Source of the DNA: Diplonema japonicum
Lineage: Eukaryota > Protista > Euglenozoa: Diplonemea
Assembly (NCBI GenBank): GCA_964019335.1
Contig: OZ025735.1
Coordinates: 345,586 to 409,585 of the forward strand
Direction of reading: 5' to 3'
Length of the DNA: 64,000 nt
A program made the translations under genes and the position numbers. Below, piece after piece: positions 1,942 through 63,979 of this stretch (within the stretch, counting starts at the first letter, position 1; every line of letters starts with the position of its first letter). The notes below the pieces were generated by a model that worked only from the letters and a program-made list of their open reading frames with translations, did no database searches and was not told the origin of the DNA.

Positions 1942-1990
<49 letters not shown>

Positions 1991-2007
1991 CCTTCTTCCC
2001 CCTCTCC

Positions 2008-2043
<36 letters not shown>

Positions 2044-2068: not shown

Positions 2069-3436
2069 ATGTTGAACGCATTTAAAACGCTTGATGCGTA
2101 CCCAAAGACCCTGGATGACTTCAAGGACAAGTGGGTGCCTGGTGCGTGCATTTCGATGACAAGCATGCTTGTCATCACGGTTATCATAATCGGGGAAATC
2201 AGTATGTACAGCACAGTGACGCAGAAGCACAATCTTTACGTCGATGACGAGGTCACGGGGACCATAGATGTGCACTTGGACATTACCTTCCCAAAGGTGC
2301 CTTGCGTAGTGCTCAACATCGATGCAGTGGACTCCTTCGGCGACACGATGCTCGATGTGAAACGGAAATCATTAAAAAAAATACGTTTAAACCAGGACGG
2401 GTCGGTGCACAAGGAGGAAGACGACAAACATGTCGCTGATGACGAGCACCTTAAAAAGTTGAAAGCCGACGGTTACTGTGGATCGTGCTACGGAGCTGAA
2501 TCCAAACCTGGCGACTGTTGCAACACCTGCGACTCCGTCAAGCTAGCGTACGAGAAAAAAGGATGGTCATTCTCTCTCTTTGACAGTATTGAACAATGCG
2601 CCGGCGAACGACTTGCAAAGCAGCTCGCGGTAACCAGCCACGAGGGTTGCAACCTTAAAGGCAACCTTCGAGTCAACAAGGTTCAAGGCGCGTTGCATTT
2701 ATCTCCCGGAAGATCTTTCTTGAACCACGGATTACGTTTGGGCGAAATTTTCGAAGAGCAATCTTTCGACATCTCACACATTATCAACAAACTGGGTTTC
2801 GGTGAAGAGTTCCCTGGGTTGGTATGGTTTTTTTTTTTTTTGTTACAAATATTTATCTTTCAAAAAAATGATTTTTATAACTATATGCAACTTTGTGCCG
2901 AGCAAAAAAAACTTTCGCAGCTTTTTAAAAAAAACTTTTTTTTTTGCGAACAACAAAGACATATAGTCATAAAGAAATTATTTATTTATTTTTTTTTTTT
3001 TCAAATCCCTATTAGATCAACCCCCTCGACAAACGTGATCACCAAAACCCCACGCAGGGTAACGGTCTGTACCAGTTCCACATCAAGGTCGTCCCAACTA
3101 GGTTTGAGAACCTCAAAGGGCTCATTCTCAATACCAATCAGTACAGCGTTACTGAACATTTCACCACCAAGACTTCAGGCGTTGGTCCCGGTGTTTACTT
3201 TCAGTATGATTTGTCGCCTGTCCGAGTGCACATTGTTGAGTCTCTTCAGCATCGATCCCTCCTCCACTTCTTCACCTCACTTTGCGCTGCAGTTGGGGGT
3301 GTCTTCACTGTGGCTGGGCTTCTTGATTCTCTGGTATTTCTTTTGAAAAAAAGAAAATTTAAAAAAGAAAAAATTTTTTTTTTTATCACAGCTTTATCAC
3401 AGTCACCGTAAGTTGTTAAGAGGAAAGAATGAATAG
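2069..3436 (+). CDS. ERGIC3: ER-Golgi intermediate compartment protein (ERGIC3/Erv46); exons 2069-2821, 3016-3333, 3392-3436
   Basis: LDAYPK, YCGSCYGA...CCNTC, EGCNLKG.L.VNKV.G; splicing restores GEEFPGL|INPLD and GGVFTVAGLLDSL|LYHSHRK; introns 2822-3015 and 3334-3391 are GT-AG. Confidence 0.92.
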
Positions 3437-14200: not shown

Positions 14201-17200
14201 CGAGGAACAGCGCGTACGAGCTGCAACCAGGTGCCTCTGACAGCTACCCTGTGTACTTTGAGCCAAAGCAGAGCGGGAACTTCGAAACAAAGATCACCAT
14301 GTCACTGAAGGACAACTCATTTGAGGACACGACCATCACGCTGCTTGGGGAGGCCTTTGAAGAGGAGGTCGTATTCGAGGGCTTGGACGAGGGGTGCGAC
14401 AACTTCATGACGCTCGCGGACTGCGGTGTAAACGCCCCGACGCAGAAGACGTTCACTCTAGAAAGCCACTGCAAAGATGTGCTGAGGTACCAGTGGGTGC
14501 GCGAAGGAAATCCTGGGGAGGATAAGTTCACCGTGTTGCCATCGGCAGGACACATCATGCCGGGCAAGACAAAAGAGATCACCGTAAGCTTCCTCAGCTC
14601 CGAACCCGAAGACCTTCAGAAGGTGAAACTCACGATGAAGACATGGAAGGTTTCACTTGCAAAACAAACAGCAACCGTATGGGATTCGAGCCTGACTTCA
14701 GTAAGATGGGAACAGGACATCACACCCCCCAGCACTCCCAAGGAGGTGCTTGAGGAGGAGAAAATACCAGAAAAGGTTCAGGAGAAGGGAAAACCAGGCA
14801 AGGGGAAGAAAGATGCCGGTAAGGCAACACCGGAACCGGAAGAAGTCAGGGAGCCAACTCCCGAGTCTATTCTGTCAGCTGAGCAGACCTCGCTGCTTCA
14901 AAAGGAGAAGGAGCTTGAGAGGAAGCGAAGACCTTTGAAGAAGGTGACCGAGCCCACCGCGGAACCTGCCTTTACCTACATTGACGATGAAAAGACGCCG
15001 AAGGTGAAAAACCTGTTCATCAAAGCGGTGTGCGACTACGCCACGTGGGAGCTGCAAGCTGATGCTGAGGGCCACTCGCTGATAGAGACAGGTGTGCGCT
15101 TCGCTACCACGAAACTGTTCCAGACCAGGACGATCCCCATCGTGTTGAAGAACACCGGGAAGATCTCTTTGGAATGCATCTGGAAGATGCTCAACAAGAG
15201 CGGCGAGATCGTGAACACGGAGGAGTCGAGCACCTTCGCCATCGAACCCGACTACTGCAAGATCCCTCCTGGGAGCAGCTCCTCTTTCAGGCTGGCATAC
15301 GCCCCGCTCGACACCGACCCCCATTCGGCGATCCTGCGGGGGTGCATTCCTAACGTGAAGAATGAAGGGGACAAGCAGGCACCACAGCCGAAGATTGCAC
15401 TGAGCGGAGTGGCTGAGTGTCCATTGGTGCACTTCGACCTAACCGAGAGCGACTACCTAATAGCAGGGAGGAGGAACCCTGAGCTTAGCACTCCGCATGC
15501 AAGGTTTATCGACAAGACTGCAAAGGTTATTGAGTTTGCCTGCTCTGGTGTTAAAGTGCGGACCACGAGGCGATTCTTCATCCTAAACCCTACCAACATG
15601 TCGTATGAGTACGAGTGGACGGATGTCCCTGATGGGAGCAAGCAATTCATCTGCCAGACGCCTAAAGGCGTCGTGCACAGCGGGAAGAAAGCCGAGATGG
15701 TGTTTGAGTTCACCGCCGACAAGCTGGACTTGAAAGAGGCCTTCTGGGACCTACGCATTGGCGGCAGGGCAGGCGAGAACTTCTTCAAACCCATCACCGT
15801 GCCCTTCTTGATGGTTGGCAGGACGACTGAACCAAACATCCTCCTCAGCCCTACAAGGGTCAACTACAACCAGGTCCTATTGGGGGCGAAGTCCAAAAAG
15901 ACCTTGCAGCTCTCCAACAGCGAACCCATTCCGTTCGCCTTTAACTTCGTAGTGGGGAGAGGTGTTGTGTCTGTCAGCCCCATGAGCGGTTCCATCCCTG
16001 CACATTCCTCTTTACCCGTCGAGGTATGCTTCTCACCGTCGTCGGAGGAGGCGTACAATTGCAACATCGTGTGCAACGTGAAGAAGAAGACGAACCCACT
16101 GACATGCAACATCAAGGGTGAAGGCTACTCCATCCATGAGTCGCTCGTCATCAAGAACAGTGACGGTTCTACACAGCTGCTCACCGCGGGTGCTGTGAAT
16201 ACGGTTGATTTTGGCAGAGTGCACATTAACTCTAACGTCAACAGGCAGCTCATCATCTCGAACTCCGGAAAGCTCCACTTCGACTACAAGTGGTCCCGCC
16301 CGCCTTCTTCCGCCGTCAACTTGTCCAATGAGATCGACACGGTGGCACGGAACGGGAAGTCGGTGTGCGAACTCACCTTCAACCCCACAAGAGTGTGCAA
16401 CATCGAGAACTACCGCATGGTCTGCAAGATCACGAACGGTGCATCGTACACCTTGCAGATGCAGGGTACAGGCGTGCAGCCCAACGTGCATTTCAGCGTC
16501 ACAAAGATTGACTTCGCGGCGCAATTCATCCACATCCCCGGGAAGCATGCTCAGCCCAAGAAACACGTTCTGCAGATCACGAATCAGGACAAAACAGACA
16601 TCTCGTATGAATGCAACACGGAGCCGCCGGCCTGGCTTGAAGTGGACGCCACGCCTAGTGTTCTAGCGAAGAACGGTTCGAAAGAGGGTGGTGTGTACAC
16701 CGACAGACGTGAGGTCGTCTTCACGTTCAAGCCCCTTGAAGCAGGCAAGGTCGATGCTGTGATCCCCTTCGAGATCAACGGCATGTTCACAGTCAACGTG
16801 CACGTCTTCGGCGAGGGTACCATCCCCAAGGTGGAGCTTGCCGCTGGCCAACCCAACACCATCAGCTTCGGTTCCGTGCGTGCGGGCGACGTGAAGCTCA
16901 TCCCTGTCAAGGTGCAATGCAAGTCGAAGATACCAACGCCCTTCAGCTTCAAGGACTGCTTCCCCCCAGAGCTCGACAAGAACCTCATCACCATCTCTCC
17001 CTCTGACATGATCATCTTGAAACCGAGGGAGATACGTACCGTGGAGTTCCGGTTCAAACCCCCGCTTGGGATGCGCCTTGCGCCCTTCAACTACAACATA
17101 GAAGCCGAGGTATAGAACTAAGATTTAAAAAAGAGAAAAAGAAATGATTTTAACAAATATACAGATTGCAAGTCAGAAACGACACTTCCTTACGCTGATG

Positions 17201-19283
17201 GGCAGCAGCATAGGAATGGAGGTGCACTTGGACCAGAAAACACTGTCTTTTGGAACTGTGGTTCAAGGCACGAAGCAGTCGAGGAAAGCGCTTATCATGA
17301 ACACAGGCGATGTGCCTGTTACGTACCAGTGGCCAGAACTTGACGGGAGCGGGTACAGCGTGTCGCAAAACACGGGGTTCATGCTGCCCCACTCAGAGCA
17401 GTCGTGTGAGATTACGTTCGCACCATCGGCCCCCATGCCGGAGTCGCACAGGGAGCTCAGCTTGAAGATAATCGACGCGACGGTGACACCGAACCTTGTG
17501 AAGGTGATACCCATCTCGCTGGTGGGAGTGTGCAGCAAGCGGCCTGCTGTGGCGGAGGAGCAGACCTTCAAGTGCCCAGTGAGGGACACCACAAAGAACA
17601 TCATCAAGATAACAAACAACACAGCGGAAGAATGGGTTCTGTCGCCTGCATTAGACACGAAGAGCTGGGTGGTACCTGAGAAGGTGACTGTCTTGGCGAA
17701 TTCCTCTCACGACATGGAGGTGATGTACGCACCACTGGTGATGACAAAGACGAGCCAGAAGGGCGACAAGGAGTACGACAAGGGAACGCTGTTCCTGCCG
17801 ATCCCCACAGGGGACCCGAAGCAAATGATGCACAGTTTGATAGGCGAGGCAGCACCTCCCAGCGCAGAGGATGAAATTGAAGAGAGCGTGACAGCCAAGA
17901 CATCGCACACCTTGCTTCTCTTGGTACGAAACTGGCTTCCGACATCACAGCGATTCACCGTAGTCAGGGATTTCATGATCATCCCACCGAGCGGATCGCC
18001 CATTCCCATCGACTGCTCCATCAATGTCAATGGAGCGAACACCATCGACGTGCCTCCGCACTCACAGCGTAACTACAAGCTGGCGTTGATATCCTACAAG
18101 GAGTGTAAGATCAAGGGCACCGTCAGGTTTGTCAGCGATGCGACCAAGGAGTACCTTTACTTCAACGTCTCGTTCAACATAAAAGCACCGAAGGACCTCA
18201 GAACCATCAGCATCAAGACGCCTGCTAGACAGGTCATGACGGAAGATATCTACATAGAGAATCCTCTTGACAAGCTGGTCGTTCTTGAGGTTTCAAGTAC
18301 CGGTGCACCAGGGGAGCTCACGCACCCTGACAAGCTCAGCGTGGAGCCACGGTCTGCAGGGAGGCTTGGGCTGGAGTACCTTCCGTTGGTTCCTGGGCAG
18401 GAAAAACAGGCCAAGTTGTTGTTGAAGTATGACCAACAAAAACAAAAAAAAAAAAACAAAAAAAAAAAAAATAGATCCCCAGACTTAGGGGAGTTCCCTT
18501 ACACGTTGAACCTCACACCGCTGCCGTCTGTGCCTGAGAAAAGCTTGAGGTTCACAGCTCCTTTGGGGCAAGCACAGCAGCTTACTGTTAGGTTGCGAAG
18601 CTTGGCAAAGTATGAGAATTTTCTTTTTTTAAAAAAAATCCCCCTCAGGACGCCTTGCGATTTTACGTGTAAATTTGCTGATCCTAAATCTCCATTCACG
18701 AAATCTCAGCCTGTTATGGTGGTGAAGGCCGCAGCATCTACGAAGCCAGACGGGGAAGAGTTTTCTTTCGATGTGACATTCGAGCCGTGCAAATTCGGAG
18801 AAGCGCGGGATGTTCTGGAGGTTTCTTCTCCTGTAGGCGGGACCTACTTCCTCACTCTCCTAGGGAACTGTGCCATGCCGCAGAGGCAAGGGCCTTATGA
18901 GTGCAGGAGTGGGCAGGCCAAGGTCATCCCGTTCAAGAACGTCTTCCCAGACACCGCAGTTTTCGCCTTCGCCACAGATCTACCCTCCTTTACGCTGTCC
19001 AAAGCCTCTGAGAGCATTCCTTCTAAGAAAGATGTCGGTGTTCAGGTCACCTACAAAGCCAGCCCGGACGACCCCCCCGTTGCCAAGGCGAAGGTATCTC
19101 AGAAAAAAAAGTTTTAAAAGAAAAATATCATTTCAGCTTACCGTTACTTGCCAAACAGAAGCTTCTGGTGCCCCTATCAGTTGGGTTTATTACCTTAGGT
19201 ATGTTCGGGTTAAAAGAATGGGGAGGGCGAGAAAAAACGATTTTTTTTTCTTTTTTTTCTTCTACAGTGGTGTTGGTGCATGA
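5287..19283 (+). CDS. HYDIN: Hydin, flagellar central-pair protein, ~4580 aa; exons 5287-17109, 17165-18426, 18475-18609, 18649-19093, 19137-19198, 19268-19283
   Basis: Many ASH/PapD-like repeats (lDFG...l.N), central adenylate-kinase-like P-loop GAPLSGKT, N-terminal IVFKNYEPFKLYETPLVFKN, C-terminal WVYYL|SG; five GT-AG introns give a 13743-nt continuous frame. Confidence 0.95.
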
Positions 19284-19611
19284 GTTAGTCAGTCCGTATT
19301 TCTTTTTTTAATTTGAATAAATTGCCCCGTTTCCCCCCGCTTCGGGAGAGAAAATCTATTTTCTCCCCCCCCCCCTCTGTTTATTAATAGTATTGTTATT
19401 GTCCCCCCCCCCCCCCTCGTTCTTTTACATTAGAAAACCAAAAAAGGACGGGGAGGGTGAGGAGGTGTGGAGGGGGGAGAGAGAGAGAGAGACGGTGGGG
19501 TGTGTGTAACATAATTAATTTCTTTTAAAAAAAACCCCCCACCCCCCCCCCCACACACACGCATCTCCTCCCCCCTTTTTTTTTTCTTTTTGAAAAAAAA
19601 AATACCAAAAA

Positions 19612-20761
19612 ATGGCAACCAAGAAACCATTGAACGTGCAGAGCGCGAAAGTAAAGCTAAACGAGCTGTTTATACACTGGCTGACACTACCAGAGGCTCA
19701 GGATCTGGTTGGAAAGCTAGACAAAATAGGAGTAGAAGGTGGCGAAATACTATTAGACCTAGATGGAACGGGCGGCAATGGATTAGGCACAAGCCCGGTT
19801 ATTGCATTAGAAAGGGTCGGGTTGGGTGAGAGCGTGGGACATGGCAATCTGAGTTTTACATCACCACCTAGGAGTCCAAGAGCAAGCCCGAGTCATAACT
19901 CGGTGAGACATTCAAATTCACTTGCCTCGCCATTGGTGGACGAGCTTGATGCTGCTCATAGGCAAGGTGCCATGAGCCCCCATGGGTCACCACGTGCCAC
20001 ACGGCTGGCAAGCCCTGAAAATCTTGCAGTGGCACCAACGTCCCCTTTGCGCGGGCCGAAGATCAATTTAGGCTCACCCGCGCAATCTTTGACTGTTGCG
20101 GAGTCGCCTTTCGCGTCGGCATCACTGAACTCTTCCACCTCATCCCTTCCTAGCGATGCGCATGGCAACCCTGCTAGGTTGGCAACCGCCTTTGCTCAAA
20201 TGCAAGACCAGCAAAATCTTCCTCCGTTGAACCTACCACCATCTGGAAAGACGACGTCCCCATCGCTACAGCCGCTTGAACACCCTGCCATCAAAAAGAA
20301 GCTGACAGGTGAGCCCCGAGTACAGATCCCAACATTCTACTTCCCGAAAGGAAAACCGCAGCCAGCCGACGAGTCCGACAAGGAGATCCAACTGTTGCGG
20401 AAAATGTTTGAATCTAAGAAAGTGGCCTCGAAGACAAACCCAAGGCCGCGGAGGGATAAGGCAACGGCCAAGTATGACAAGCTGCTCAAGGTGAAGGATT
20501 TCGCGGACATCACGAAAAAAGTCTGCCAGCTGCCGCGGTGGATGAACGATCTCCTGTTCAAAAGGGTGATGTGCTACGACCCCGGGCTGGCGAATTACAA
20601 CAAGGAAAAGGAGCGGGAGTGCGCGATCCACCCTGCCAACAGTACGGTGACCTACCAAAAGTTCATGGAATTCTACGAGAGGGAGATGGCAGGGAAATCA
20701 AGGGAACGGAGGCTGTTCGACGCCATCAAATGGGATAAGAAACGCGACATAATCGAGGTAC

Positions 20762-20796
<35 letters not shown>

Positions 20797-21722
20797 AACA
20801 GAAATCCGATCTTCGACCGTTGGTTGAGGAAGTTCTTCTCGTCCACCCGGGGCTGGAGTTTTTAAAGTCCACCCCCGACTTTCAAGAACGGTACGCGGAC
20901 ACGGTACAGGTTCGAATAATTTTCAGCAGCACCAATTCGGAAGATTCCACCATTTCATGGGCGGACTTCCTGTCAAGCTCCCTGCACGACGTCCTCCACA
21001 TTCTTGACGAGGAAACAGATATCAATGTTAGCCAAAAAACCGAATTCTTCAGCTACGAGCACTTCTACGTGCTGTACTGCAAATTCTGGGAGCTGGACAC
21101 GGACCACGATTTCTACATATCGAGGGACGACCTTGCGAAGTACGGGCTCTACTCCCTCACAAATAACATTGTAGACAGAGTGTTCAGCGGCAAGGGCCGA
21201 CCGTTGAGGTCAGATATTGTCGGTCTCATGAATTATGAAGATTTCGTTTGGTTTTGCTTATGTGAAGAGGACAAGACAACGAGCAGATCTCTCGATTATT
21301 GGTTCCGATGCACCGATCTAGACGACGACGGTGTGATTTCTGGATACGAAATCGGGCATTTCTTCCAAGAGCAAAAGCAGCGGATGGAGTCCAGCTACCA
21401 AGAGACAATTGCTTACGACGATATTCTCTGTCAGATGATGGACATGATAGCCCCTGCCAGAAGAGACGGATTGCGGCGTTCTGACATCAAGTCATGCAGG
21501 CTGTCGGGGAACTTCTTTAACGCTCTCTTCAACCTAACCAAGTTCATTGCGTTTGAGCAGAGGGATCCCTTCATGGCGCATGCTGAGAAACAGCTTCCTG
21601 AGAAAACGTATGGGAAGGGGTGAGGAGGGGAAAAAAAAAAAAAAAAAAAAAAAAAAGTGATTGGGACCGATTTGCCAAGATAGAGTATGACAGAATGTCA
21701 CATGAAGCCGGTGAACAGGTTT

Positions 21723-21768
<46 letters not shown>

Positions 21769-21815
21769 AGGAAGATGTGTCTGAGGATTTCGGGATGAGT
21801 TATAACGGGGGGTAG
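19612..21815 (+). CDS. PPP2R3: PP2A regulatory subunit B'' (PR72 family, EF-hand); exons 19612-20757, 20802-21607, 21658-21718, 21771-21815
   Basis: VKLNELFIHWL, IPTFYFPKG, HPGLEFLKSTPDFQERY, FSYEHFYVLYCKFWELDTDHD, T|DWDRFA.IEY. Confidence 0.93.
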
Positions 21816-24846: not shown

Positions 24847-24916
24847 GAGCGAGGGGGTGTTGGGCTCTTTTTTTTCTTCTCTTCTTGCTGAACCTTCCCT
24901 CGCTAGGAAAACAAAT

Positions 24917-26197: not shown

Positions 26198-27657
26198 AAG
26201 TACATAAACCGCGAACCGGTCGGGGCTACTCGAGTAAGAAAAACAACAAAAAACCGTCAGTATGCTTGTTGTTCATAATGCCGAATGAGGTGGTGACCGC
26301 GTGTGTGGAGTTTCTCTCGGATAAAGAAGTGCTTGGGGTCGAACTGGCGTGCAAGAAAATGAAACAATTCGTGGAGGTCTACCGCATATGGGAAACAATG
26401 TTCAAACAGAAGAAATGGCGCGCCCCTGTATCACCGCCGGACAGCTGGAAGCAGTACTACCACACCGTCATGAAACAGAGGGAAGTCGCGATAAAGGAGA
26501 AGATCAACAACGTCTCCTGCACGCTGTGCTGGAGGGTCGACTTCCCAATCGCAAAAGAACCGTTCAAAAAACGATCCAGAGAATTCGAATTCTCACATGA
26601 CGCTCTGGGAAGCCCTATAAAATGGCAGATTGAATCTGAATTGAAACAAACAGTCTCTTACGAACAAGCTGCAATACGGATCTGGACGACAAACAGCTGG
26701 ACACCCGAAACTACAGATCACTATTACGGGTCGCATTGCACTGTGTCCGTTCGAGACTGCCACGACAAGGAGGACCTGCTTCAGGAAACGACGATTGACA
26801 TCGACAACAGCAAAGACTTACGGTTCGACGCCGTTCTTCTACCGGAAAACCGGGAGCTTCTGTTGAAGGTGAACCTCACCCTTGCCCTTGAAGTCGCTGT
26901 TCCATTGGAACCCTTCTACACACTAATATCACATGAACCCTCCGACTCCGTTCGTATCGGCTACTGCAGAGCAATATTCGAAATCGCAAGATGCAAACGA
27001 AAGCACGGAAGTACGTTTATCCAACAGTGCGACAGCAACGTGGGTATCCTAGTCAATCTGGCAGCTAGCAACGATACATCAAATAAATTGAAGGTTTGGA
27101 AGAAGAAAAAAAAAAAAAAAAAAAAATTGTAGGCTGAGGTTTTCCAAGCGTTGTTCAACTTATTGTCGCCTTCGAGTGTGTTCATTCCCGATGAGCTGGC
27201 GGGGGGGTTGATGAACACGTGTATTGATGTTATAACAGAGGCAGCGCTTCCTGCTGTTGAGGAGCGTGAGGCGTTGCATTTAAGCGTGGTGCTGGCGCAG
27301 AATGCGTTGGGGAGTGCGTTTAACCTTTTGGTGCACCCTGTGTCGAAAAAGCTCCTCACCGCTCCCGTTCTCCGCCAAATGGAGAAGCTTCTCTCCTGTC
27401 CCGCGTACAAACTTTGTAACTTTAGCGTTATCACGGTGGTCCTTACTGCCGTGCACTGGGGTACCCTGCCTGCTTCGCACGCTGACGATGTCGTGGCTCA
27501 TTACATGGCAGCGAACAACCCCCTCGATCCTGACTGCACGGGGGTGGCTTGGGACGAGTCTGATATTGCAGCGTACTTCCTTCCCTTGCTGCGGTCCAAA
27601 AACCTGACTTGCGTTGTATTTGCCACGTGGTGCATTACGGCATTTTATCATGATTGA
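26194..27657 (+). CDS. F-box protein with C-terminal ARM-like helices; intron 27094-27132
   Basis: MPNEVVTACVEFLSDKEVLGVELACKKM...W is F-box-like; splicing joins NKLK|AEVFQALFNLL. Confidence 0.78.
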
Positions 27658-31867: not shown

Positions 31868-34572
31868 ATGGACAGCGACGGGGCCGTATCGACAGACTAT
31901 GATGTGACCGAGGACTCCATCGGCAGCGACACAAATTCCATCACAGCCAGCCGCCCGTCATCATCGATAACAGCATCTTCCGTAGTGGACGAGACGCTGA
32001 ACAGAAAGAAAAGCAGAGGCCACCGCCGTGCACACGCAAGGGAGGCTGACCAGTACCTCTCTCAATGGAAGCTGCGTGAGGCGCTCAGTGAAGCGATGGA
32101 AGCCGTGCTGCTGAACAAGCCTGGCGACCCGTACAGGTTCCTCAGCGAGAGGTTCTCCGACATTTCGGAAGGTGAGACACGCAAGCAACAGCAGTTGCAG
32201 TCGCCCGAGTCGTTGGACGAGATCGTGCCTGACTGGCTGCTCAGCACAGAGCCCCCTCAAGCTCAAGTTAAGAAGTTAGGGAGGAAAAGGTCCGCACCTC
32301 CAGAGGACCTTGCGTCGGTACTGTCAAGAAGCAGCAGCAGGTGCTCGCTCCTCTCACGAAGCTCTCGCACAAAAAGGCTTCAGCCGACAGAAGTGCCCAG
32401 CTTGCCTAGTACCGACGAATCGCTGTCAAAGCTCGTGTCGACAGCCTTGGCACTGTCCTCGTCCATCGTGAACAGCGCAGACCTCATCAACGTGATAGCG
32501 GTATGTTTCCCCCCACATTATCCACTTTTTTGCAGAATGAGCTCCAGACACTGCTCGCTGCCGACCGCTGTGCTATGTTCATACGCAACGAAAACTCGTT
32601 TCTGGTTTCGCCTGACCAGGACAAGACGATCCGGCAGGGCGAAGGCCTCACCGGGAAGTGCGCCGAGAAGAAGGCGCTCCTCATAGGGAACGCGAGGAGC
32701 AAACTGTACTCCGAACAAGCTGACGCGGTATGGCTTGTTCCCCGCCCCCTTTTTTTTAGACCCACTCAACAGGGAACGGACAGCTCCGCAATCCTGTGCG
32801 CACCTATCATCTGTGATGACGAGGTGTTGGCAGTGGTGCAGTTGCACAAGGCGAAGGGGAAGTTTAGCGAGACTGAAGTGCTTGTGTGCACCACGGTCCT
32901 TGCATTTGCAGGTGTATCGCTAAGAACTGCAGAGCTGTATCATTCGCAGAGGTCGCTTGCAATGAAGTGCACGTTCCAGATGGACATCGTGAGCAGGCTG
33001 GGTGGGATGGACATGAAGAGCTGGAAGGAAGTAGTGGGGGGCGTGTCGAAGGCGGCCTGTGAGATACTCAGCGCAGAGCAGTGTGTCCTCTTTACAAGTG
33101 ACCCAGCCTCCGGTGAGCTTGTTGCGCTGCTTGAAAGCGGCACCGAAGAGCGTATCAGTGAACTAGACGGCATCCCGGGCAAGGTGTTCCAGTCCGGCGA
33201 GCCTATTAATCTCCCAAACGCTCGCTCCGACCCTTCCTTTGACCCAGGCCTCGACCACAAGACCGGCATCGCTACGACGTCCCTCCTTGCCATGCCCGTT
33301 CACCACAGGGACGAGGTGGTTGCCGTGGCGCAGGTTTGCAACAAAGCCGACGGCTGTTTCACAAAGGAAGATGAAGAGCTCCTTCAGTTTTTCTCTCATT
33401 TCGCCGGCGCTGCGCTGTACAACAGCAAGCTGTACGACGCCCTTGTGCAGGCGAGGACACACACGCTCAACATCCTCGACAAGCACAGCACTTCAAACCC
33501 GGCACCCGAAGCGCAAGTGGAAAAACACTTGGTAAAGCTGGACGCAAGGGACGTTGCGTTGCTGTCGTCACTGGAGTTCAACGTGCACAGCTACTGGCAC
33601 ACAACAGCGGAGCACGACAAGCTAGTGGGGTTCGCCTTGTCCATCATGCAGTATGCTTAACACGCAACCATTTCACTTCACGTGACAGGAAGCTGCAGGT
33701 ACTGACTTATCTCCAAGCTACGCAGAGGCAGGTGGTAGGATTTCTGTTGGCGGTGCAGCGGAGGTACGCGAAGTTGCCGTGCCACTGCTTCGCATGGGCC
33801 GTCGACGCTCTGCAGGTATACTGCCAACACAACACAACACAACACAAACCCACAGTACCTGTACGTAATACTGAATGAGATGGGCGCTGACAAGATGCTG
33901 GAGTGCAAGGACGTGGTGTCAGTGGTCATGTCTGTCCTGCTGTGTGACATAGGGCACATGGGGCTGAACAATGCGTACCATGGCAGAATGGGAAGCCCAC
34001 TGGGGTGGCTGGGTGAATCAGTGGGGTGCGGGAGTGCATTAGAACTGCACCACTGCCAAGTAGGTATAGAGGTATTGGAGGAAACCGGGATCTTAAAGGG
34101 GCTTGAGAGGGAAGGCGTGGCTTTCATGGTAAAGAACATCATCAGCAACATCATGAGCAGTGACATGGCGCAGCACCAGGGTGTGTTGGAAAGGTTCAAA
34201 GCTGTAGTGGCGTCGGGGTACAACAAGGAGAATTTAGGGCACAGGCTCACACTGTGCAACATGCTGATGAAGGTGGTTGACCTACGGTGCAACACAAGGC
34301 CCTTCACGGTGGCGAGGCTATGTGCGAGGTCACAGAAGTCTGAGCTGGAGTACCAAGGTGACCTTGAAAGGTCATGTGGCTTCACTCCCATCCCTGCCTA
34401 TGACAGGCACCACAAGAAGTACACCCTTGCCTCGTATCAGCTAGCTGAGATTGATCACGTGGGTAGGCCGCTCTTTGAGGCATTCGCCCGATCCCTCCCC
34501 TCCGCTCAGCCCCTTCTCACGGCTCTGGAAGCAAATCGGCGTTCCTGGCAGGCGATTTCTCCCGGGCAGTAG
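31868..34572 (+). CDS. Dpy-30/RIIa-like + GAF-GAF + degenerate class I cyclic nucleotide phosphodiesterase; exons 31868-32500, 32536-32727, 32773-33650, 33689-33815, 33856-34572
   Basis: QYL...L...L..A...VL.NKP.DPY.FL; LLAADRCAMF; DPSFDPGLDHKTG..T.SLLAMP...NK...FTKEDE; PDE remnants DIGHMGLNN, LELHH, SDMAQH, YQGDLE; four introns give an 848-aa frame. Confidence 0.85.
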
Positions 34573-34611: not shown

Positions 34612-34745
34612 CTATTTACTGCCAACAAGTAATGACTTTACCGTTACCTCGAGGTTCCGCATTTTACCGTCGAGGGCCCGCAGGGCCCGAGATGGTAAAA
34701 TGCGGAACCTCGAGGTCGGTAAAGCATTACTTGGCGGTAGGTAAG
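34612..34745. repeat. long imperfect inverted repeat (hairpin)
   Basis: Perfect 23-bp core 34646-34668 / 34694-34716 (ACCTCGAGGTTCCGCATTTTACC), with pairing extending both ways through bulges. Confidence 0.92.
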
Positions 34746-40416: not shown

Positions 40417-40731
40417 AAACACAGCATGCAGGGCACGGAAGAAGCGACGCCCCTTCCCAGCGGACGAGAGAAAAAGAGTGAAGTCCCTCATCGCCATTGG
40501 AGGAAAGGCAGCTATTGGTTTCTCCAGGAGGCCTATTTTCGCCACCCGCTCCACGCACGACAAGCTAATGGAGTTGAAAGCCGACTACAAGCGGGACCGC
40601 ATCACACGACTCCGCAAGACGCTCACGGCCTCAATCGGGATGAAAGCAATGCTCCAGAAGGGAGTATTAACAGATAGACCCCCCCTCCCATAGGGCGGCC
40701 CTCTAGCGGGGGGCTTGTCCTGTACTTTGAG
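40417..40731 (+). mobile_element. 5'-truncated copy of the non-LTR retrotransposon at 60254-61771
   Basis: About 315 nt near-identical to 61455-61771 (one substitution and one G indel seen), same 3' end TGTACTTTGAG. Confidence 0.92.
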
Positions 40732-41387
40732 TTTCTTTTTCCTCTTAATCTTCGACCCTATCTTTTTTTTGTTCCCCCCCCATTTTTTTTTCTACTGTAT
40801 CCAAAACAACTGCTGTTCAGTTTCTTGTAAGAACTGGAAAAAAAAAAGAAAAGAAATAAAATAGGCAGCATGTTAATCTACCCCCCCCCCCTGATTTATA
40901 TCATGCGCAAAAAAACTCTTAATTTTTGTTTCACTTTCTTTTTCTTATTGCCCCCCCCCGAGTGCAGTGAATAGGGGGGCCCTACCAGTAAACACATTTG
41001 AATCAAAGAAAAGATGTGGAGAAAAAAAAAAAGAATGAAAAAAAAAAAAGCATTTTTTTTTATTTTCTACGATTTACATAATTTTCTAAGTTGCCAAAGT
41101 AGCCCCCCCTAATAAAAAAAAGAGACACGAATTAACGTAAACCCGCGTCAGTAAAAGGGAAAAGACTCTAAGTTGATTATTTATACAGAAAGGGGGGGGA
41201 GGGAGAGGGGAGTTACCATTGAGAGGGAAAAAAAAATCAACTTGTAGAACATGTCCCCCCCCCCCCCCCCCCCCCCCCCTCCCTCCCCTTTTTTTACCTC
41301 AAATCATTTCCCTTTAAAAAAAAAGAAAAAAAAAGAAGGGCACAAAAAAAAAACCCCCCCCTTTCCTCTAACACTTTCAAATATTAT

Positions 41388-42504
41388 ATGAGCAATGGTT
41401 CTGAAGAATGCACATGGGTGCCTTCGGGGGAGAAATGGAGCTGGCAAGGAGGTGCAGCGAGCGCAGAGGTAGTCACAGCGGTGGAGGAACCCAAGGTTTT
41501 GTGCCTTGGGGACGGCATTTTCAGCTCGCTGGTGCATAATGGGAGGTTTTCCGACCTCCTGCAGAGCCTAGGTCTTGTCACTGCCACTGTGAGCAGTATA
41601 ACTGAGGCCCTTGGCCTTGCTGAGACAGCAGATATGGACGACTGGTGCGCGCCTTCGGTGCACACCATAGTCCTTTGTTTGGGTGCATTCGATGTGAAGA
41701 GGAAGACTGCAGAGCAGGTATTTTATTATACCCCCCCTTTTTTTTAAACAAAAAAAAAAAAGGTCCGCGACGGGATTCTGCAAATCGCTGAAACAATCGC
41801 AAAATCAAGCAACGAAAGGGTTGAGAGGGACGACGACGCCCTCCCCCAACAAGTATGGGAGAACAACAACAATAGCAACAAAAAAAAAAAAAAAAAAAAA
41901 AGATCATCATATACGGAGTCCCTCCGACTGACGCCTCCTTTTCAGCAGAAGAGGCAGTGCAGACAACTGCAAAGGTGAACAGCATGCTATCTTTTGAGAC
42001 GCTGGAGAAGTACCCGTACTTGGCAAGCCTAAAAATGCAGAGAATGCTATCCTTGGACTGCGGTCTATACAACCAGCTGAACGTGAAAGAGGAGCTACAC
42101 CATAGGGAGGTGTCGTTGAACTCTAGGTACGTTTTTTTTTTTTTTTTTTTATCCCACAAAAATACAGGGGTATTGGGGTGTTGGTCCAGAAGCTCATTGA
42201 TGATGTTCTGCCAAAATGGCCTGGTGGGAACCCTCCGGTTGGTATCTTTGAAGGAATGAAGCAGCTAGGGCTCAAGGGCGAGCAGAAGTATTTCCCGTTC
42301 ACGGTGACCTCTGCAGCAATGCAAAGGAAGTTCGCTGACCAGAAGTCCTCGCAAGCGAACGCCATTCCTTCCTCGAAATCCTGGGCCACCATAGCTGCCA
42401 CACAGCGCTCGCACAACGCTGCTAGCAAATTGGACTCTGTGACTAACTTTTCCCGTTTAAGAGGCATGCGTACTGTTCTCCGGGCTCATGCCACCCCAGT
42501 CTGA
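41388..42504 (+). CDS. SGNH/GDSL-fold protein, catalytic motifs degenerate; exons 41388-41717, 41763-41852, 41903-42126, 42168-42504
   Basis: VLCLGDGIF (block I), IVLCLGAFDV (block III), IIIYGVPP, AKVNSML; three GT-AG introns give a 326-aa frame. Confidence 0.7.
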
Positions 42505-44705: not shown

Positions 44706-45579
44706 ATGCCAGGGGGGGACAGTTTTTCAGGCATTGTCCCCTCTCCCCCTTCTACACGGAGAACTTTCAACGGCACCCATTCACCCCGTCTCCCGCCGTC
44801 TCTCTTCGGGTGTTCCCCCCGTGTCGTGTGCGATACGAAGGAAGCACATCCTGACCCTGCGCATCTCCCGCTGTTCTCGTCCTTTCAGGAGGCATGTGTC
44901 GTTAGGTCACCGTTGCCCCCATTCCAGCAAATGAACACGTTTAACTCATCTATGAAGCCTTCTGACATGAAGAAGCAACGCGTGGCGTTCATGCCCGCTA
45001 CAAGGGAGACAGATCTGGTGAAGAAAGAGGACCTTTTGAAGGTAAACGGGCGGGGAAAAAAAAAAAAGAAAAGAAAAAAAAAAAAAAAAAAAACACAGCC
45101 CGGACCAGGCACGTATACTTTAGACAGTTCATTTAGCATCGCAGTCGCGAAATGCACAGAAATGTGTGAAATATACAGCCCTATGAGGTATTGATATCTT
45201 CTTCGTGATTTTTTCCCCTCATAGAGCGAAGCACATCACATCGAATAAGGGGACGATGTCGGTGACCCCTCGAATGCGTCCTAACATGTCGTTAGGAAAG
45301 GGTCCTGGATGTTATGCGGCACCGTTATCCACGCTGAGGGTGTCTGTGCAGGGCAAAGGCAACACGAACGCTGTTTTCGGGGGGTCGAGTAAAATTGACA
45401 GAGCAGAGTGGACAAAGGCGTCAGCAGGGTCCACCACCGCAGCGGTGCCGCATGTCTACGACAGGCAGGTAGACACATGGAACAAGTCCAGCTTCAACAA
45501 AATACTGAATATTGCGAGCCGATCAACGATCAAGCAGGGCCACATGCCGGTAGTACCGCAGCCTTTAAGGCTTTTGTAA
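44706..45579 (+). CDS. SHIPPO/PGP-repeat (ODF3-like) protein; introns 45042-45098, 45188-45224
   Basis: PGPGTY and GPGCY repeats after splicing. Confidence 0.7.
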
Positions 45580-49083: not shown

Positions 49084-50873
49084 ATGTCAACAATATCCCG
49101 CCGGTACAGCGCGCTGAAGTACGCGAAGTACAACCTTTACGACCCAAAGCGGTTTGACAACGAGCTCCCTCAGCATTGGCTGCTGTCGAAGCCGCCTGTG
49201 AATGTCGACGGGAACAAGTTTGTGGAAATAAATCTGAACAGCGATGACACGTTGCTGCTGTTGCGACAGAGCAGGCTTTTCAACGTACGGCAAGAGGCTT
49301 TGCAAGAAGCCAAGGCCATGCAGCTGAAACTCCTCGAGGACATGGAGAAGAATGACGAGATTCAAAAAGTCCCGCAAAAATGGGAAGGATACCTCAACGA
49401 CCTCAAGCGCGGGTCGCAGTCCCAAGCGGAGAAGGAATACCTGCAGCTCTCACGGTGGAAGGTCAGGACAGAGGAACGAAAACCGGAACGAGACGTTCTC
49501 CCGTATGACTACCTATGGGTTGCCCACGCCATGAAGAGCAAGGTTTGCACAATTGAAAGCCATGCGAAACAATATTTCCCCCTTCATTCTGTGATCCAAG
49601 GGATCAAAATACTTGCCGACAAACTGCTCGGAATCAAGGAGCCGCCCAAGGACGAGGACTGGTACGTAAGTCTCTGCCCATGGTTCACTTATGAGGAGGT
49701 TGTGAAGGGTTATCCCCGGACTCTAACACCCGTACAGGCATGGCAGATGTTCCGTCATGCGGGGCACAAGCTCGCCCTCACCCTCAAAGAAGAGAACCCG
49801 AACTCTCTCATTACATCGGCAGATCTCTACGGGCAGCTCTTCGAGAGGTTCGCTTCGAACCCCACCTTCATGGGCACCTACACCAACCACTGGTCGCGTG
49901 TCGAACTGCTCCCCTCTGCGTCTCAACAACCCCTCCCTCCTAAGTACGCAAGCCTCCTTGCAAAGTCTTATCGCAACATGCCTGCATTCCGAGTCCAGCA
50001 GGCATGGTGGTACGCCCAGCCGGATAAGCTGAAGGATGAAGTGCTTGAAGAGGGTATCTACTTCTATCCAGTCCCGTCCGTGAGGCATACTTTAAAGTGC
50101 GGTGTGCCTGCGTTGAAGGGGATCATGGCGGAGCTGGCAGCGTCTATGTTGTGGCATCACTTGGCGGACGATGGTGACATCGATATGTATGTTGAAGAAA
50201 AAAAAGAAAAAAAGAAGAAATAATAATTTTAACATGAACAGAAACGACGAGTTGTTTGAACAGCTGTCGATGGCGGTTGAAGAGGTGGAAGAGTCGGAAG
50301 ATGCGATGGAGAAGATCATGATGGAGCTGAGGGGTGCCGAGTCCCCGCTGCTAGCAGCGCCGGACTTGACGCGCATGTCGCCAGTGTTCCCGAACCAGTT
50401 CTACGATGAGACGTACAGGCCGATTATGAGGTACGAAATAGACCACGCAGCATCAGAGGGCTTGGAGCTTCCACCGTGGTACACAAGAAGGAGGAGGGAA
50501 CTGGCGATGGGTCCCAACGCAGCAGCAGTACCTGACTTGGGTGTCAGCGCTACTGGTGAGCTCTTCGACTTCGATGAGGAGCTCGCTGCAGAGGAAGAAC
50601 TTCGCTCTGCAGAGGAACGCAAGGCCGCAGAAGAGCAGGCACGCCTCGCAGCCGAAGCAGAGGCCGCAGCCAACGTCGAACTGGACGCAATGGAAAACCC
50701 CGACCTCACCCTCGGCGAACGACTCCGCATGGCCCAGCTTGAAAACGCCATCACCACCAAGAACGACAAAGCTATGCAGAACGTCCTCCTCGACCAGGCC
50801 AGTTCAGAGAGAGATGTATGTACAACACAAAAAAAAAAGGGGGGGAGGGAGAAATAATTCACCACAGAATTAA
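49084..50873 (+). CDS. degenerate M3 metallopeptidase-like protein, probably mitochondrial; intron 50187-50241 and probable terminal intron 50816-50867
   Basis: QYFPLHSVIQGI..LADKLLGI, QMFRHAGH at the FHE.GH position, QLFERF...Y..HW; Arg/Ser-rich N-terminus. Confidence 0.65.
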
Positions 50874-53376: not shown

Positions 53377-53903
53377 ATGTCCGAGCTGAAGGAGAAGATT
53401 AAAAAGATCCCGCTGCTGAAGACGAGCGCGGGACCGAGGGACGGGGAGCAGTGGGTGCAGAGGCTGAAGGAAGAGTATGAGAGCTTGATAACTTATGTGG
53501 AGGCAAACAAAGAAGCAGACGCGCACTGGTTCAATTTGGAGAGCAATGCAGCAGGAACCCGGTGGTTCGGCACGGTGTGGTACTACCATGAGCAAGTATG
53601 CGGTTAGCCATGTCAAATATTTAAAAAAAAAAAAAGGTGAAATACGAATTTGACCTCGAGTTCGACATACCAGTTACATACCCTCAGAACCCCCCGGAGC
53701 TTGCCCTGCCGCAGCTGGACGGAAAAACCTTGAAGATGTACCGAGGGGGGAAGATCTGCCTCACGGTGCACTTCCACCCGCTGTGGACGAGAAATGTTCC
53801 GAAATTCGGGATCGCGCACGCGATGGCGCTCGGGATGGGCCCGTGGCTGGCCGCTGAGGTCCCGCACATGGTGAGAGAAGGGTACTTGAAACCCCCCGCA
53901 TGA
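53377..53903 (+). CDS. UFC1: UFM1-conjugating enzyme 1; intron 53596-53636
   Basis: [67 protein letters not shown]. Confidence 0.97.
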
Positions 53904-53962
53904 TTTCTTTCTTTCTCTATTTTCTTTTCACCATTCCTTTGCCTTTCAACCCTTCCAGTCCA

Positions 53963-55626: not shown

Positions 55627-55879
55627 CAGTGCAAAAAGAAAAAAAAAAGAGGGGAAGGGAAGGGGGTGTGTGGACAGTTTACACTGTTTTCACCCTCCCC
55701 CACTCCCTTTTTTTTTTTTGTCCTCCCTTGCCTTGCCCAGTAAATTTAAAAAAAAAAAAAAGTAGAGTTAACATAATTTTTCTTTCCTTTTTTTTTTTTA
55801 AAGTATTTCCATTTCTCCTCCCGGTTTTCTGCTCTTTTTACCGCGTTTTTTTTTTTTTTTTTTTTTCCAGCTTTTCCAG

Positions 55880-56971: not shown

Positions 56972-57660
56972 TCGAAGAGAGGGGAAGAGAAATAAAAAAA
57001 AAAAAAAAAAAAAAGACCACACTAATTGTAAATGAATGTTATCTAAAAGGGAATCGAGCGGCAAATCTTTTGTTCGAGAAGGATAAAAAAAAAAAAAAAA
57101 AGTAAATATCCCGACTTTGCACAAAACAACGAAACTGCCAGGCCCTTTCTTTTTTTTTTTCTGTCCTTTTCTTTTTCTTTTTCTTTTTCTTTTTCCTTCT
57201 GCATTGTAAATGTACTTGTACCATCCCGCCCTTTTTCTTCTATCCTATCCTATCCTACATGACGAGAAAAGAAAAATAATAAAATATGTCACTCTACTTA
57301 ACTTAACCTTTCTTTGGTGTCCCTTCTTTTTTTTTTCTTTCTTTGTGTGCAAAAAAAAAAAAAAAAAAAAAAGAATGGACAACGTAAAATGGGAAATAAA
57401 AAGAATAACTGTCTCATAGATAGCACCCCCCCCTCCCCCTTTTTTAGGCGATCCTGTCACATACTGCAGGCTCCCTTCAAAAAAAAAAAAAGAAAACATC
57501 TTTTTAGTATTTTATCTTTTTTTTTCTCTTTCTCATGACTGACTATGTCGTTCAAAAAAAAAAGAGGGGGACATTGGAAAAGAAAATTTCTAGCCCCCCC
57601 CCTGTATTTATTTAATTTCCATACCAAAACAAAAACAAAAAAAATAAACAGGCCAACGGG

Positions 57661-61771: not shown

Positions 61772-61833
61772 TTTTTTTTTGGTGACCACCTCTTTCTTCA
61801 TGTGATCGCTCTCCGTTCGCCATCCCTCTTTCT

Positions 61834-62151: not shown

Positions 62152-62453
62152 ATGGCGAAAAAGAAAAGCGCGAAACCAATTCCACATGGGCACACAGCGC
62201 AAGTAACTAGCGGGCTTAGCGAGAAGGGGGGGGATATATGCTACCAGCAACCTGGTGGGAAGTATGCTTTTTATTTTTTCTCCCCCCCCCTCCAATTTCA
62301 AACAGGTGCATCTCGCACTGGCACGACTGCAACCACAAAACCTGTTTTACAAGGGGTTATTGCACCCCAAAGCACATGCCCGACATTTACACTTATAGCT
62401 ACGGAGCAGGGGGGTGCAGCGACTACAACGCCGCTTCGAGCACATGGTTTTAA
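62152..62453 (+). CDS. candidate small spliced gene (85 aa, Cys/His-rich); intron 62262-62305
   Basis: GTATGC...AACAG 44-nt intron typical of this genome joins two frames; alternative start 62238 gives 38 aa. Confidence 0.4.
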
Positions 62454-62527: not shown

Positions 62528-63979
62528 ATGCTCCGACGGGCCTCGTGCGTGACCGCACAGCGCCGGACTGGCTTCCAACCTAACGCCCACAACGGGATTC
62601 ATGGAAGTGGACTGAACCCCGCAAACACTATGAACAAGTACTGGGTTAAACTGCGAAACAAAGAACACAAGTTAGAAACAAACGCGATGGCAGAATCCTT
62701 CGGATACCATGAGTTCCTGGAGAAGAAGAAAAAAGAACTGGAAAGAGAGGGTCTATGGGGTGTGTACCTAGCACAGAGGGTCATCAACTCTGTCGAGGAA
62801 GAGGACGCAGATCACCGAAACGTGTGTCTGAGCAGATTCCTCGCAGAGATCTGCAACGTGAACCAAATGCAGGAGATCCTCGACGCGAGGGTGATGGAGG
62901 ACAAGGGGGTGGTTGAGGCATTCGAACGGTACATCAAAACACCGAATAAAGGCTTCAGCATCTCGCTGGTTCTTGCAAGAATTGCGGCCTTCTACGCGGG
63001 GGACGCAACATGCCTCGGTATACGGTACACCTTGCTGATGCGGGCGTGTACCGCAAACGACGACCGTGACAAAACCGCAGCTCTACGAACCTCCCTTGCA
63101 AAGGTCGACATTGAAGCAAAAAGGTACAAGGCAGCTTTGGAGGAAGCGGAAGCTGCTCTCGAACACATTACCGCAGAACACCCAGTCTACCCAACAGCTA
63201 TGTTGGTGAAGGCAACAGCTTACCTAGGTTTAGCTGATCTAGTTGGCTGCAGGACGGTGGTTCGAGAACTGGGTGAACTAGGCGATGAAAGCTTCAAAAA
63301 GGAGCTAGTGAAAAAACTGGAGACAATGGAGAACAAGGAAACCATATACACGTGGGACGGGCAGTTTAAAGAAGGCACAGAGGTGTACATGGTACTGGCC
63401 GATGTACTGCAGCAGTTTATAAGCGATGCGAAGTTTAACAGGTACAGCGTGCAGGCGTACCTCCCGTGGATCCTTGAGGGAGTCGAAGAACTCGCGGATG
63501 AGAAGAATATTACTGTTCATATTATTGGTGATATTGAGATACCTTCGGGTCTACTTTCTGGTGTTCGAGGGCATGCTGTGTGGCCGTGTTCCTTCCCTGC
63601 TGATGTGCCGTCTATGGGAGTCTTTGCAAACATCAGTCGTATCCCGTGTACACCTGATACTGCCTGCACGCCATCTACTTTCGCAAATATCATCAAAAGT
63701 CGTATCCTCCTCCCCACCGCGAATCCTGTTGCCTATGACGATCAGTACAATATTATCGAAGCGCGAAGCACTATGTTCAACACCTTTGACCCTCCTCGAA
63801 GGGCTGACGATGTCTCGCGGGTATATTAATATTATGGGGGATTAAGAAAAAAAAAAAAAAAAAAAAAAAAAAAACAGGAAATAAAGGAAAAACGAAAAAT
63901 CCGTAAATTCGAACGGCAGATGCTCATCACGAAAAGGCTCAAAGATTTGCCTTTTTTCGCAAAAGCATCCGAAAAATGA
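62528..63979 (+). CDS. probable mitochondrial TPR-like protein; intron 63821-63877
   Basis: MLRR presequence; LAKV.I...RY..ALEEAEAAL helical repeat; last exon EIKEKRKIRK...ASEK*. Confidence 0.75.

What the first reader, a model, noticed from the sequence alone, without database searches (positions are those of the whole stretch)
20758..21770. Cis-introns with poly(A) instead of polypyrimidine 3' splice sites
Seen: many introns are little more than a donor, an A-run and AG: 21608-21657 (A26-G), 21719-21770 (A41-CAG), 41853-41902 (A22-G), 41718-41762, 53596-53636 (A13-G), 63821-63877 (A28-CAG), 18427-18474, 20758-20801. No pyrimidine tract or branch consensus is evident, yet splicing restores conserved motifs. 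Several gene-start acceptors (24906, 53958, 55870, 56770) do have pyrimidine tracts. Inference: U2AF65-independent intron definition by donor, length and first AG, with A-tracts shielding cis acceptors from SL trans-splicing. Some introns are T-rich, so the rule is not absolute.
Basis: partly seen in the sequence, partly recalled or inferred. Interest (0 to 1): 0.8.

Follow-up and report, generated by a model that had tools for sequence, protein, structure and literature searches.

The report
A-rich short introns of a diplonemid
In this marine flagellate (a diplonemid), short introns are really spliced even though about a third end in a run of A instead of the usual C/T tract, a quirk already published for Diplonema japonicum; the splice point is likely set by the intron start, a minimum length and the first AG after a G-poor stretch, and a role in shielding introns from leader trans-splicing is untested.

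Summary
All eight named introns exist (GT-AG, 41-57 nt) and each has independent support: spliced contigs (2), identical transcript-derived proteins (3), gap-free homolog alignment (2 more) or Pfam continuity (1). The window is a diplonemid with all modelled genes on one strand. One spliced intron has a 95% pyrimidine tract. A is enriched over intergenic AG sites (0.55 vs 0.31), but long pyrimidine runs are not depleted (10 of 30 vs 74 of 268). The shared signals are a GTAT donor, a G-poor 3' part and no AG within 12 nt of the acceptor (0 vs 15 expected). The first AG at 38 nt or more is the acceptor in 26 of 26 (threshold fitted afterwards). Poly(A) in place of the pyrimidine tract is already published for D. 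japonicum, with U2AF1/2 present (PMC12621601). U2AF65 independence and shielding from SL trans-splicing are untested, and no SL site was mapped here. Verdict: real and known; the cis-versus-SL acceptor comparison is still open.

The parts
19612..21815 (+). Gene for PP2A regulatory subunit B'' (685 aa, 4 exons); holds the three introns of the finding's span
   Evidence: PDB hit 4i5j E 3e-75; 80% global identity to P0001; inside the diplonemid clade
20758..20801 (+). Cis intron, 44 nt, GTACGC-A30-TCCAACAG
   Evidence: 44 nt missing from contigs of X7 and X2; no gap at the junction against 10 of 10 homologs
21608..21657 (+). Cis intron, 50 nt, GTATGG, purine stretch, A26-G (AAG acceptor, no pyrimidine in -23..-4)
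   Evidence: No gap at the junction against 9 of 10 homologs, the tenth ends earlier; not tested with RNA contigs
21719..21770 (+). Cis intron, 52 nt, GTTTGTTT-A41-CAG
   Evidence: No gap at the junction against 9 of 10 homologs; not tested with RNA contigs
17110..17164 (+). Hydin-like gene intron 1, 55 nt, mixed A/T, YTRAY at -12
   Evidence: Joint in X2 and X7 (table 5)
18427..18474 (+). Hydin-like gene intron 2, 48 nt, A13-C-A14-TAG
   Evidence: 48 nt missing from contigs of X7 and X1
18610..18648 (+). Hydin-like gene intron 3, 39 nt, T, A and C runs (60% pyrimidine)
   Evidence: Joint in X1, X2, X7
19094..19136 (+). Hydin-like gene intron 4, 43 nt, mixed A/T
   Evidence: Joint in X1, X2, X7
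19199..19267 (+). Hydin-like gene intron 5, 69 nt, classical pyrimidine tract (95%): counter-example
   Evidence: Joint in X1, X2, X7; composition
41718..41762 (+). Cis intron, 45 nt, C7-T8 then A12-G
   Evidence: Spliced model identical to P0121
41853..41902 (+). Cis intron, 50 nt, A22-G
   Evidence: Spliced model identical to P0121
42127..42167 (+). Cis intron, 41 nt, T-run in its 5' part: T-rich counter-example in the same gene
   Evidence: Spliced model identical to P0121
53596..53636 (+). UFC1 intron, 41 nt, A13-G
   Evidence: Pfam PF08694 positions 2-69 then 71-154
63821..63877 (+). Cis intron, 57 nt, A28-CAG
   Evidence: Spliced model identical to P0122
29268..29317 (+). PTH2 intron, 50 nt, A/G-rich; skips AAG at 33 and 36, uses CAG at 50
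   Evidence: Pfam PF01981 on both exons
27094..27132 (+). Predicted intron, 39 nt, A21-TTGTAG
   Evidence: Reading frame only
45042..45098 (+). Predicted intron, 57 nt, A20-CACAG
   Evidence: Reading frame only
32501..33855 (+). Four predicted introns of a GAF-phosphodiesterase gene (32501-32535, 32728-32772, 33651-33688, 33816-33855), pyrimidine- or CA-rich
   Evidence: Reading frame; domains
24847..24916 (+). 70-nt spacer with candidate SL acceptor AG at 24906 (75% pyrimidine)
   Evidence: Sequence only; SL addition not shown
53904..53962 (+). 59-nt spacer whose only AG (53958) follows a pyrimidine tract: best-constrained candidate SL acceptor
   Evidence: SL addition not shown
55846..55870 (+). 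T21-CCAG, candidate SL acceptor
   Evidence: SL addition not shown
1942..2040 (+). T49, C-rich stretch, A31, then G: the first AG after the pyrimidine tract upstream of the ERGIC3 ATG has 31 A directly before it (candidate SL acceptor with an A tract)
   Evidence: SL addition not shown

Best explanation
These are real short GT-AG introns of a diplonemid, likely removed by its ordinary U2-type spliceosome, whose 3' end is likely chosen as the first AG beyond a minimum distance from a strong GTAT donor and after a G-poor, A/T-rich stretch, so that the stretch can be A, T, C or CA repeats. Shown: the junctions, the donor consensus, the AG-free zone of 13 nt or more, G depletion, and the A bias. 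Inferred: U1 binds the donor and the intron is recognised across its 34-69 nt; any of the many adenosines serves as branch point; the acceptor is found by scanning; pyrimidine binding by U2AF65 matters little here, so the filler drifts by homopolymer slippage, which is rife in all non-coding DNA of the window. On this reading the nearby donor and short length, not the A run, are what mainly keep the SL leader off these acceptors.
For: Junctions. Donor GTA in 28 of 30, T at +4 in 27, G at +5 in 21; acceptor CAG 21, AAG 5, TAG 4; A at -4 in 24. Internal AG within 12 nt of the acceptor 0 vs 15.2 expected, G in -23..-4 25 vs 57 expected (0 of 5000 shuffles each); first AG at 38 nt or more used in 26 of 26. 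Of 12 AGs skipped at 31-37 nt, 11 are AAG or GAG. At most 2 G in -23..-4: 27 of 29 real introns vs 2 of 21 exonic GTATG decoys. A-, T- and mixed introns sit in one spliced transcript. Runs of 10 or more in the window: A 70, T 55, C 12, G 7. A fraction is 0.49 in the 5' part of introns, 0.56 in the 3' part and 0.52 in the 20 nt before ATGs. No branch consensus in trypanosomes, any A upstream of the tract is used (PMC9639853 passages). Donor proximity and intron length affect cis versus SL use in Schistosoma (PMC5832876 passages).
Against: The 38-nt threshold was fitted afterwards (20 of 29 at 30 nt, 25 of 29 at 34 nt); the 194-nt intron 2822-3015 skips five AGs and was left out of that test. 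14 of 30 introns rest on reading frame alone. Pure drift does not explain why A rather than T is favoured on the sense strand of introns (0.55 vs 0.31 at matched intergenic AGs, p 5e-5). The decoy comparison is coding versus non-coding DNA, so the G difference need not be a signal. No branch point, U2AF or SF1 data exist for this organism here.
Confidence: 0.55

Rival explanations
1. Two acceptor codes: SL trans-splicing needs a pyrimidine tract, and selection has pushed cis introns to A so that the SL particle does not capture them and cut the mRNA short.
For: 6 of 6 spacers of 180 nt or less have a blind-picked AG with 70% or more pyrimidine vs 7 of 30 introns (Fisher p 0.0009). SL-exon2 products arise at the pyrimidine-tract introns of trypanosomatids (PMC11613528). 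Purine insertions harm trans-splicing in T. brucei (PMC9639853). Richer tracts favour SL use in Schistosoma (PMC5832876).
Against: Pyrimidine runs are not depleted in introns (10 of 30 vs 74 of 268). 19199-19267 is cis-spliced with a 95% tract. The blind rule gives the same pyrimidine level downstream of stops (n 10). The candidate acceptor at 2040 has A31 directly upstream. Euglena uses the same C-rich tract for introns and outrons (PMC11170887), and other diplonemids keep C-rich tracts (PMC12621601). No link between tract type and position in the gene (rho -0.07).
Confidence: 0.2
2. The A tract is a positive signal read by a factor with changed specificity (an A-preferring U2AF65 paralogue or a poly(A)-binding protein), as the published paper's 'adaptable spliceosome' would allow.
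For: A is the commonest base at every position from -30 to -4. U2AF1/2 are present in D. japonicum. A supplement table lists a gained diplonemid orthogroup annotated U2AF large subunit A (PMC10161547).
Against: 11 of 30 introns lack the A bias; A-richness is not confined to the tract position; no binding data.
Confidence: 0.15
3. The A runs are sequencing or assembly artefacts, or the introns are mis-called.
For: Homopolymers of 30-41 nt are error-prone and short-read contigs break at them, so exact run lengths are uncertain.
Against: DNA-type run X3 holds the unspliced form and matches the window with no listed letter differences; spliced contigs lack exactly 48 and 44 nt; transcript-derived proteins are identical to the spliced models.
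Confidence: 0.02

Closest known systems
[quoted passage not shown] 2025, PMC12621601; parts 1-4 of 8 of the text read)
   Same: GT-AG ends, (G)/GTATG donor, mostly CAG acceptor, short introns (median 41 nt there, 46.5 here), A the commonest base in the tract, rare YTRAY (13.9% there, 5 of 30 here).
   Different: The species of the window was not determined. The paper gives no AG-exclusion or minimum-length analysis in the parts read, and 'spliced leader' occurs 0 times in its main text, so cis and SL acceptors were not compared.
Paradiplonema (Diplonema) papillatum gene organisation (Valach et al. 2023, PMC10161547; passages)
   Same: Same-strand gene clusters, SL on essentially all mRNAs, canonical GT-AG introns.
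   Different: Much longer introns there (median below 1 kb, up to 72 kb); 'pyrimidine' does not occur in its main text.
Euglena gracilis conventional introns and outrons (PMC11170887; passages)
   Same: Cis- and SL trans-splicing coexist; CAG acceptor.
   Different: Both acceptor types share a C-rich tract, with no A bias.
Trypanosomatid cis introns PAP1, DBP2B, RBP20 (PMC11613528; passages)
   Same: Strong conserved donor, no branch consensus.
   Different: Pyrimidine tracts always present, and SL addition to exon 2 is seen; only three genes have introns.

Membership tests
Canonical U2-type (GT-AG) spliceosomal introns | GT-AG ends removed precisely from transcripts | tested here: met
Canonical U2-type (GT-AG) spliceosomal introns | Conserved donor consensus | tested here: met
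   G|GTATG consensus; pairing with this organism's U1 not examined
Canonical U2-type (GT-AG) spliceosomal introns | Polypyrimidine tract before the AG (usual, not universal) | tested here: not met
   At least 60% pyrimidine in only 11 of 30; mean 0.41, below matched intergenic AGs at 0.54
Canonical U2-type (GT-AG) spliceosomal introns | Branch point and lariat; U1, U2, U2AF, SF1 in the genome | not testable with these tools
   No genome held; reported present in six diplonemids (PMC12621601)
D. japonicum-type poly(A)-tract introns | A is the most abundant base in the tract | tested here: met
   A commonest at each position -30..-4
D. japonicum-type poly(A)-tract introns | GTATG donor, CAG acceptor, length near 40-50 nt | tested here: met
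   GTATG in 17 of 30
D. japonicum-type poly(A)-tract introns | Host is a diplonemid | tested here: met
   Window PP2A B'' lies in a 13-row clade (100/100) with rows labelled Sspe and Hpha
D. japonicum-type poly(A)-tract introns | Host is D. japonicum itself | not tested
   Identical EukProt proteins exist but their listed names give no species
Non-canonical euglenozoan introns (Euglena, Hemistasiidae) | Non GT-AG ends | tested here: not met
   30 of 30 GT-AG; my search assumed GT-AG, so other types could be missed
SL trans-splice acceptors (for 24906, 53958, 55870, 56770) | SL sequence joined to the AG in transcripts | not tested

The most novel reading that the evidence does not exclude
This Diplonema has split its 3' splice signal into two codes: pyrimidine tract plus AG for SL trans-splicing, and a tract-free code (donor ruler of about 33-38 nt, G-poor A-rich filler, first AG) for cis-splicing, evolved so that short introns in polycistronic transcripts are not captured by the SL particle. 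It would be a natural system in which one spliceosome sorts cis from trans acceptors by tract identity.
Probability: 0.2. Interest if true: 0.65.

Novelty: already known. Interest (0 to 1): 0.3.

Why it matters
The A-for-pyrimidine swap is in print, so the observation itself adds little. What the window adds is a testable rule for how such introns find their 3' end (minimum length, AG-free and G-poor zone, first AG). It also gives a ready comparison for an open question, how a spliceosome that does both cis- and SL trans-splicing tells the two acceptors apart: A-tract and T-tract introns sit side by side in the same genes, so existing RNA-seq with SL-containing reads could decide it.

Tried and rejected
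No whole genome is held, so U2, U2AF65 and SF1 could not be inspected and all statistics rest on 30 introns of one window. No run was on record as RNA; X1, X2 and X7 behave as spliced RNA and X3 as DNA. Only 17000-21000 was laid, and contigs give no 5' ends, so no SL site was mapped. An automatic gene parser found most introns but also joined neighbouring genes and shifted some boundaries; I curated by hand. I left out 49666-49737 (in frame, no stop), 62262-62305 and 57604-57651 (uncertain) and the parser's long intergenic 'introns' before counting 30. Picking SL acceptors by longest AG-free zone gave 15 of 25 pyrimidine-rich sites, but the control downstream of stops scored the same, so I do not count it as proof. 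A metagenome scan with the second hydin-like exon found no related locus, so no cross-species intron comparison was made. Tract type does not track position in the gene. Paper searches found no cis-versus-SL acceptor comparison for a diplonemid. The supplements of PMC12621601 could not be read, and my supplement searches of PMC10161547 returned only spreadsheet rows, not its intron-splicing PDF section; either could bear on that gap. Two searches of earlier scan notes on introns returned nothing.

Full report
What the window is. All 25 gene models I used lie on the + strand; the parser searched that strand only, but the longest minus-strand frames (338 aa at most) overlap plus-strand genes. 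The PP2A B'' gene that holds the finding's span has its best hits among transcript-derived EukProt proteins (88% over exon 2). In a 24-row tree it falls in a 13-row clade (100/100) with rows labelled Sspe and Hpha, which I read as Sulcionema and Hemistasia (P0013 and all but 23 of the 120 hits were left out). Two other genes have 100% identical EukProt proteins. The organism is a diplonemid; the species was not determined. Same-strand clusters with SL trans-splicing of essentially all mRNAs are described for P. papillatum (PMC10161547, passages). SL trans-splicing in this organism is inferred from that, not shown.

Check of the observation. All eight introns are at the stated coordinates. Contigs of four runs were laid on 17000-21000. 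Four introns appear as joints (17110-17164 in two runs; 18610-18648, 19094-19136, 19199-19267 in three). For 18427-18474 and 20758-20801 the contigs of two runs each lack exactly 48 and 44 nt. X3 keeps the introns. The three PP2A junctions align without gaps to 10, 9 and 9 of 10 homologs. The spliced models of the genes at 41388 and 62528 are identical to P0121 and P0122, confirming four more introns. UFC1, PTH2, ERGIC3 intron 1 and PUB intron 2 are supported by Pfam continuity. So 16 introns have outside support and 14 rest on reading frame.

How general is the A tract? In 30 introns (34-194 nt, median 46.5), positions -23..-4 are at least 60% A in 11 and at least 60% pyrimidine in 11. A is the commonest base at every position from -30 to -4 and exceeds matched intergenic AG sites (0.55 vs 0.31, n 30 vs 275, p 5e-5; pyrimidines 0.41 vs 0.54, p 0.02). 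Long A runs are enriched (10 of 30 vs 36 of 268), long pyrimidine runs are not depleted (10 of 30 vs 74 of 268). A is also high in the 5' part of introns (0.49) and before start codons (0.52). It is a bias across the intron body, not a replacement rule.

What the introns share. Donor G|GTATG; acceptor CAG 21, AAG 5, TAG 4; A at -4 in 24 of 30; YTRAY in 5 of 30. In the 29 introns under 100 nt, no AG lies within 12 nt upstream of the acceptor (15.2 expected from shuffling each interior), and G is depleted in the last 20 nt (25 vs 57). Every internal AG lies within 37 nt of the donor, and 11 of the 12 skipped at 31-37 nt are AAG or GAG. The first AG at 38 nt or more is the acceptor in 26 of 26, with the caveat that I chose 38 after seeing the data. 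Donor plus first AG is not enough: 21 exonic GTATG sites are unused in my models, one of them (20472) inside the RNA-covered stretch, and they differ from real introns in G and A+T content. That compositional bias can itself define introns, as in plants, is recalled, not tested.

Mechanism. The most likely reading is intron definition across a short span: U1 on a strong donor, a minimum length, a G-poor A/T-rich body that offers branch adenosines, and scanning to the first AG. Trypanosomes branch at any A upstream of the tract with no consensus (PMC9639853, passages). With little demand for pyrimidines the filler can drift by slippage; runs of 10 or more A or T occur 125 times in the window. 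All of this is inferred from sequence; no branch point or factor was examined.

The shielding idea. It has a real basis: SL is added to exon 2 at trypanosomatid cis introns (PMC11613528), and tract richness and donor distance affect cis versus SL use in Schistosoma (PMC5832876). In the window, the six spacers of 180 nt or less all have a pyrimidine-rich candidate AG, against 7 of 30 introns; 53958 is the only AG in its 59-nt spacer. But no SL site was mapped. The blind picking rule scores the same downstream of stop codons. A 95% pyrimidine intron is cis-spliced in the same transcript as A-rich ones. The candidate acceptor at 2040 has A31 directly upstream. Euglena and other diplonemids manage with pyrimidine tracts at cis acceptors. 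I give shielding 0.2.

Prior knowledge. Thakur et al. [quoted passage not shown] That covers the headline. I found no cis-versus-SL comparison for diplonemids in seven searches; supplements I could not see may hold one.

Verdict. Interest 0.3.

Noticed in passing
window, 15 intron-bearing genes: 10 of 30 introns lie in the last tenth of their coding sequence (binomial p 0.0005, but four are in one gene). The 4580-aa hydin-like gene has an 11.8-kb first exon and all five introns in its last 2.2 kb.
   Followed up: partly
window 53904-53962 and 24847-24916: Spacers of only 59 and 70 nt between a stop codon and the next ATG leave almost no room for a 3' UTR, poly(A) site and SL acceptor; the upstream 3' UTR may overlap the tract, or the genes may share a transcript.
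   Followed up: no
window 57604-57651: A GTATT...A-rich...CAG stretch ends 10 nt before the ATG of the WD40 (PF20-like) gene: probably a 5' UTR cis intron that could be mistaken for an A-rich SL acceptor.
   Followed up: partly
window 40417-40662 and 61455-61700; 40679-40740 and 61719-61780: A 246-nt repeat at 100% identity plus a 62-nt part at 98%, ending in a T-rich tail; the second copy ends a 360-aa frame (60631-61713) with no Pfam match. Possibly the 3' end of a mobile element.
   Followed up: partly
window 34620-34745: A short inverted repeat around a GC-rich centre, in a gene-free stretch, seen by eye.
   Followed up: no
window 41388-42504 and 62528-63979: Two expressed genes whose only database hits are their own identical transcript proteins; no significant Pfam family.
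   Followed up: partly
window 17000-21000, runs X1 and X2: Two runs differ from the window at about 1-3% of laid letters yet splice at the same places; they could show how fast the A tracts change if matching DNA exists.
   Followed up: no
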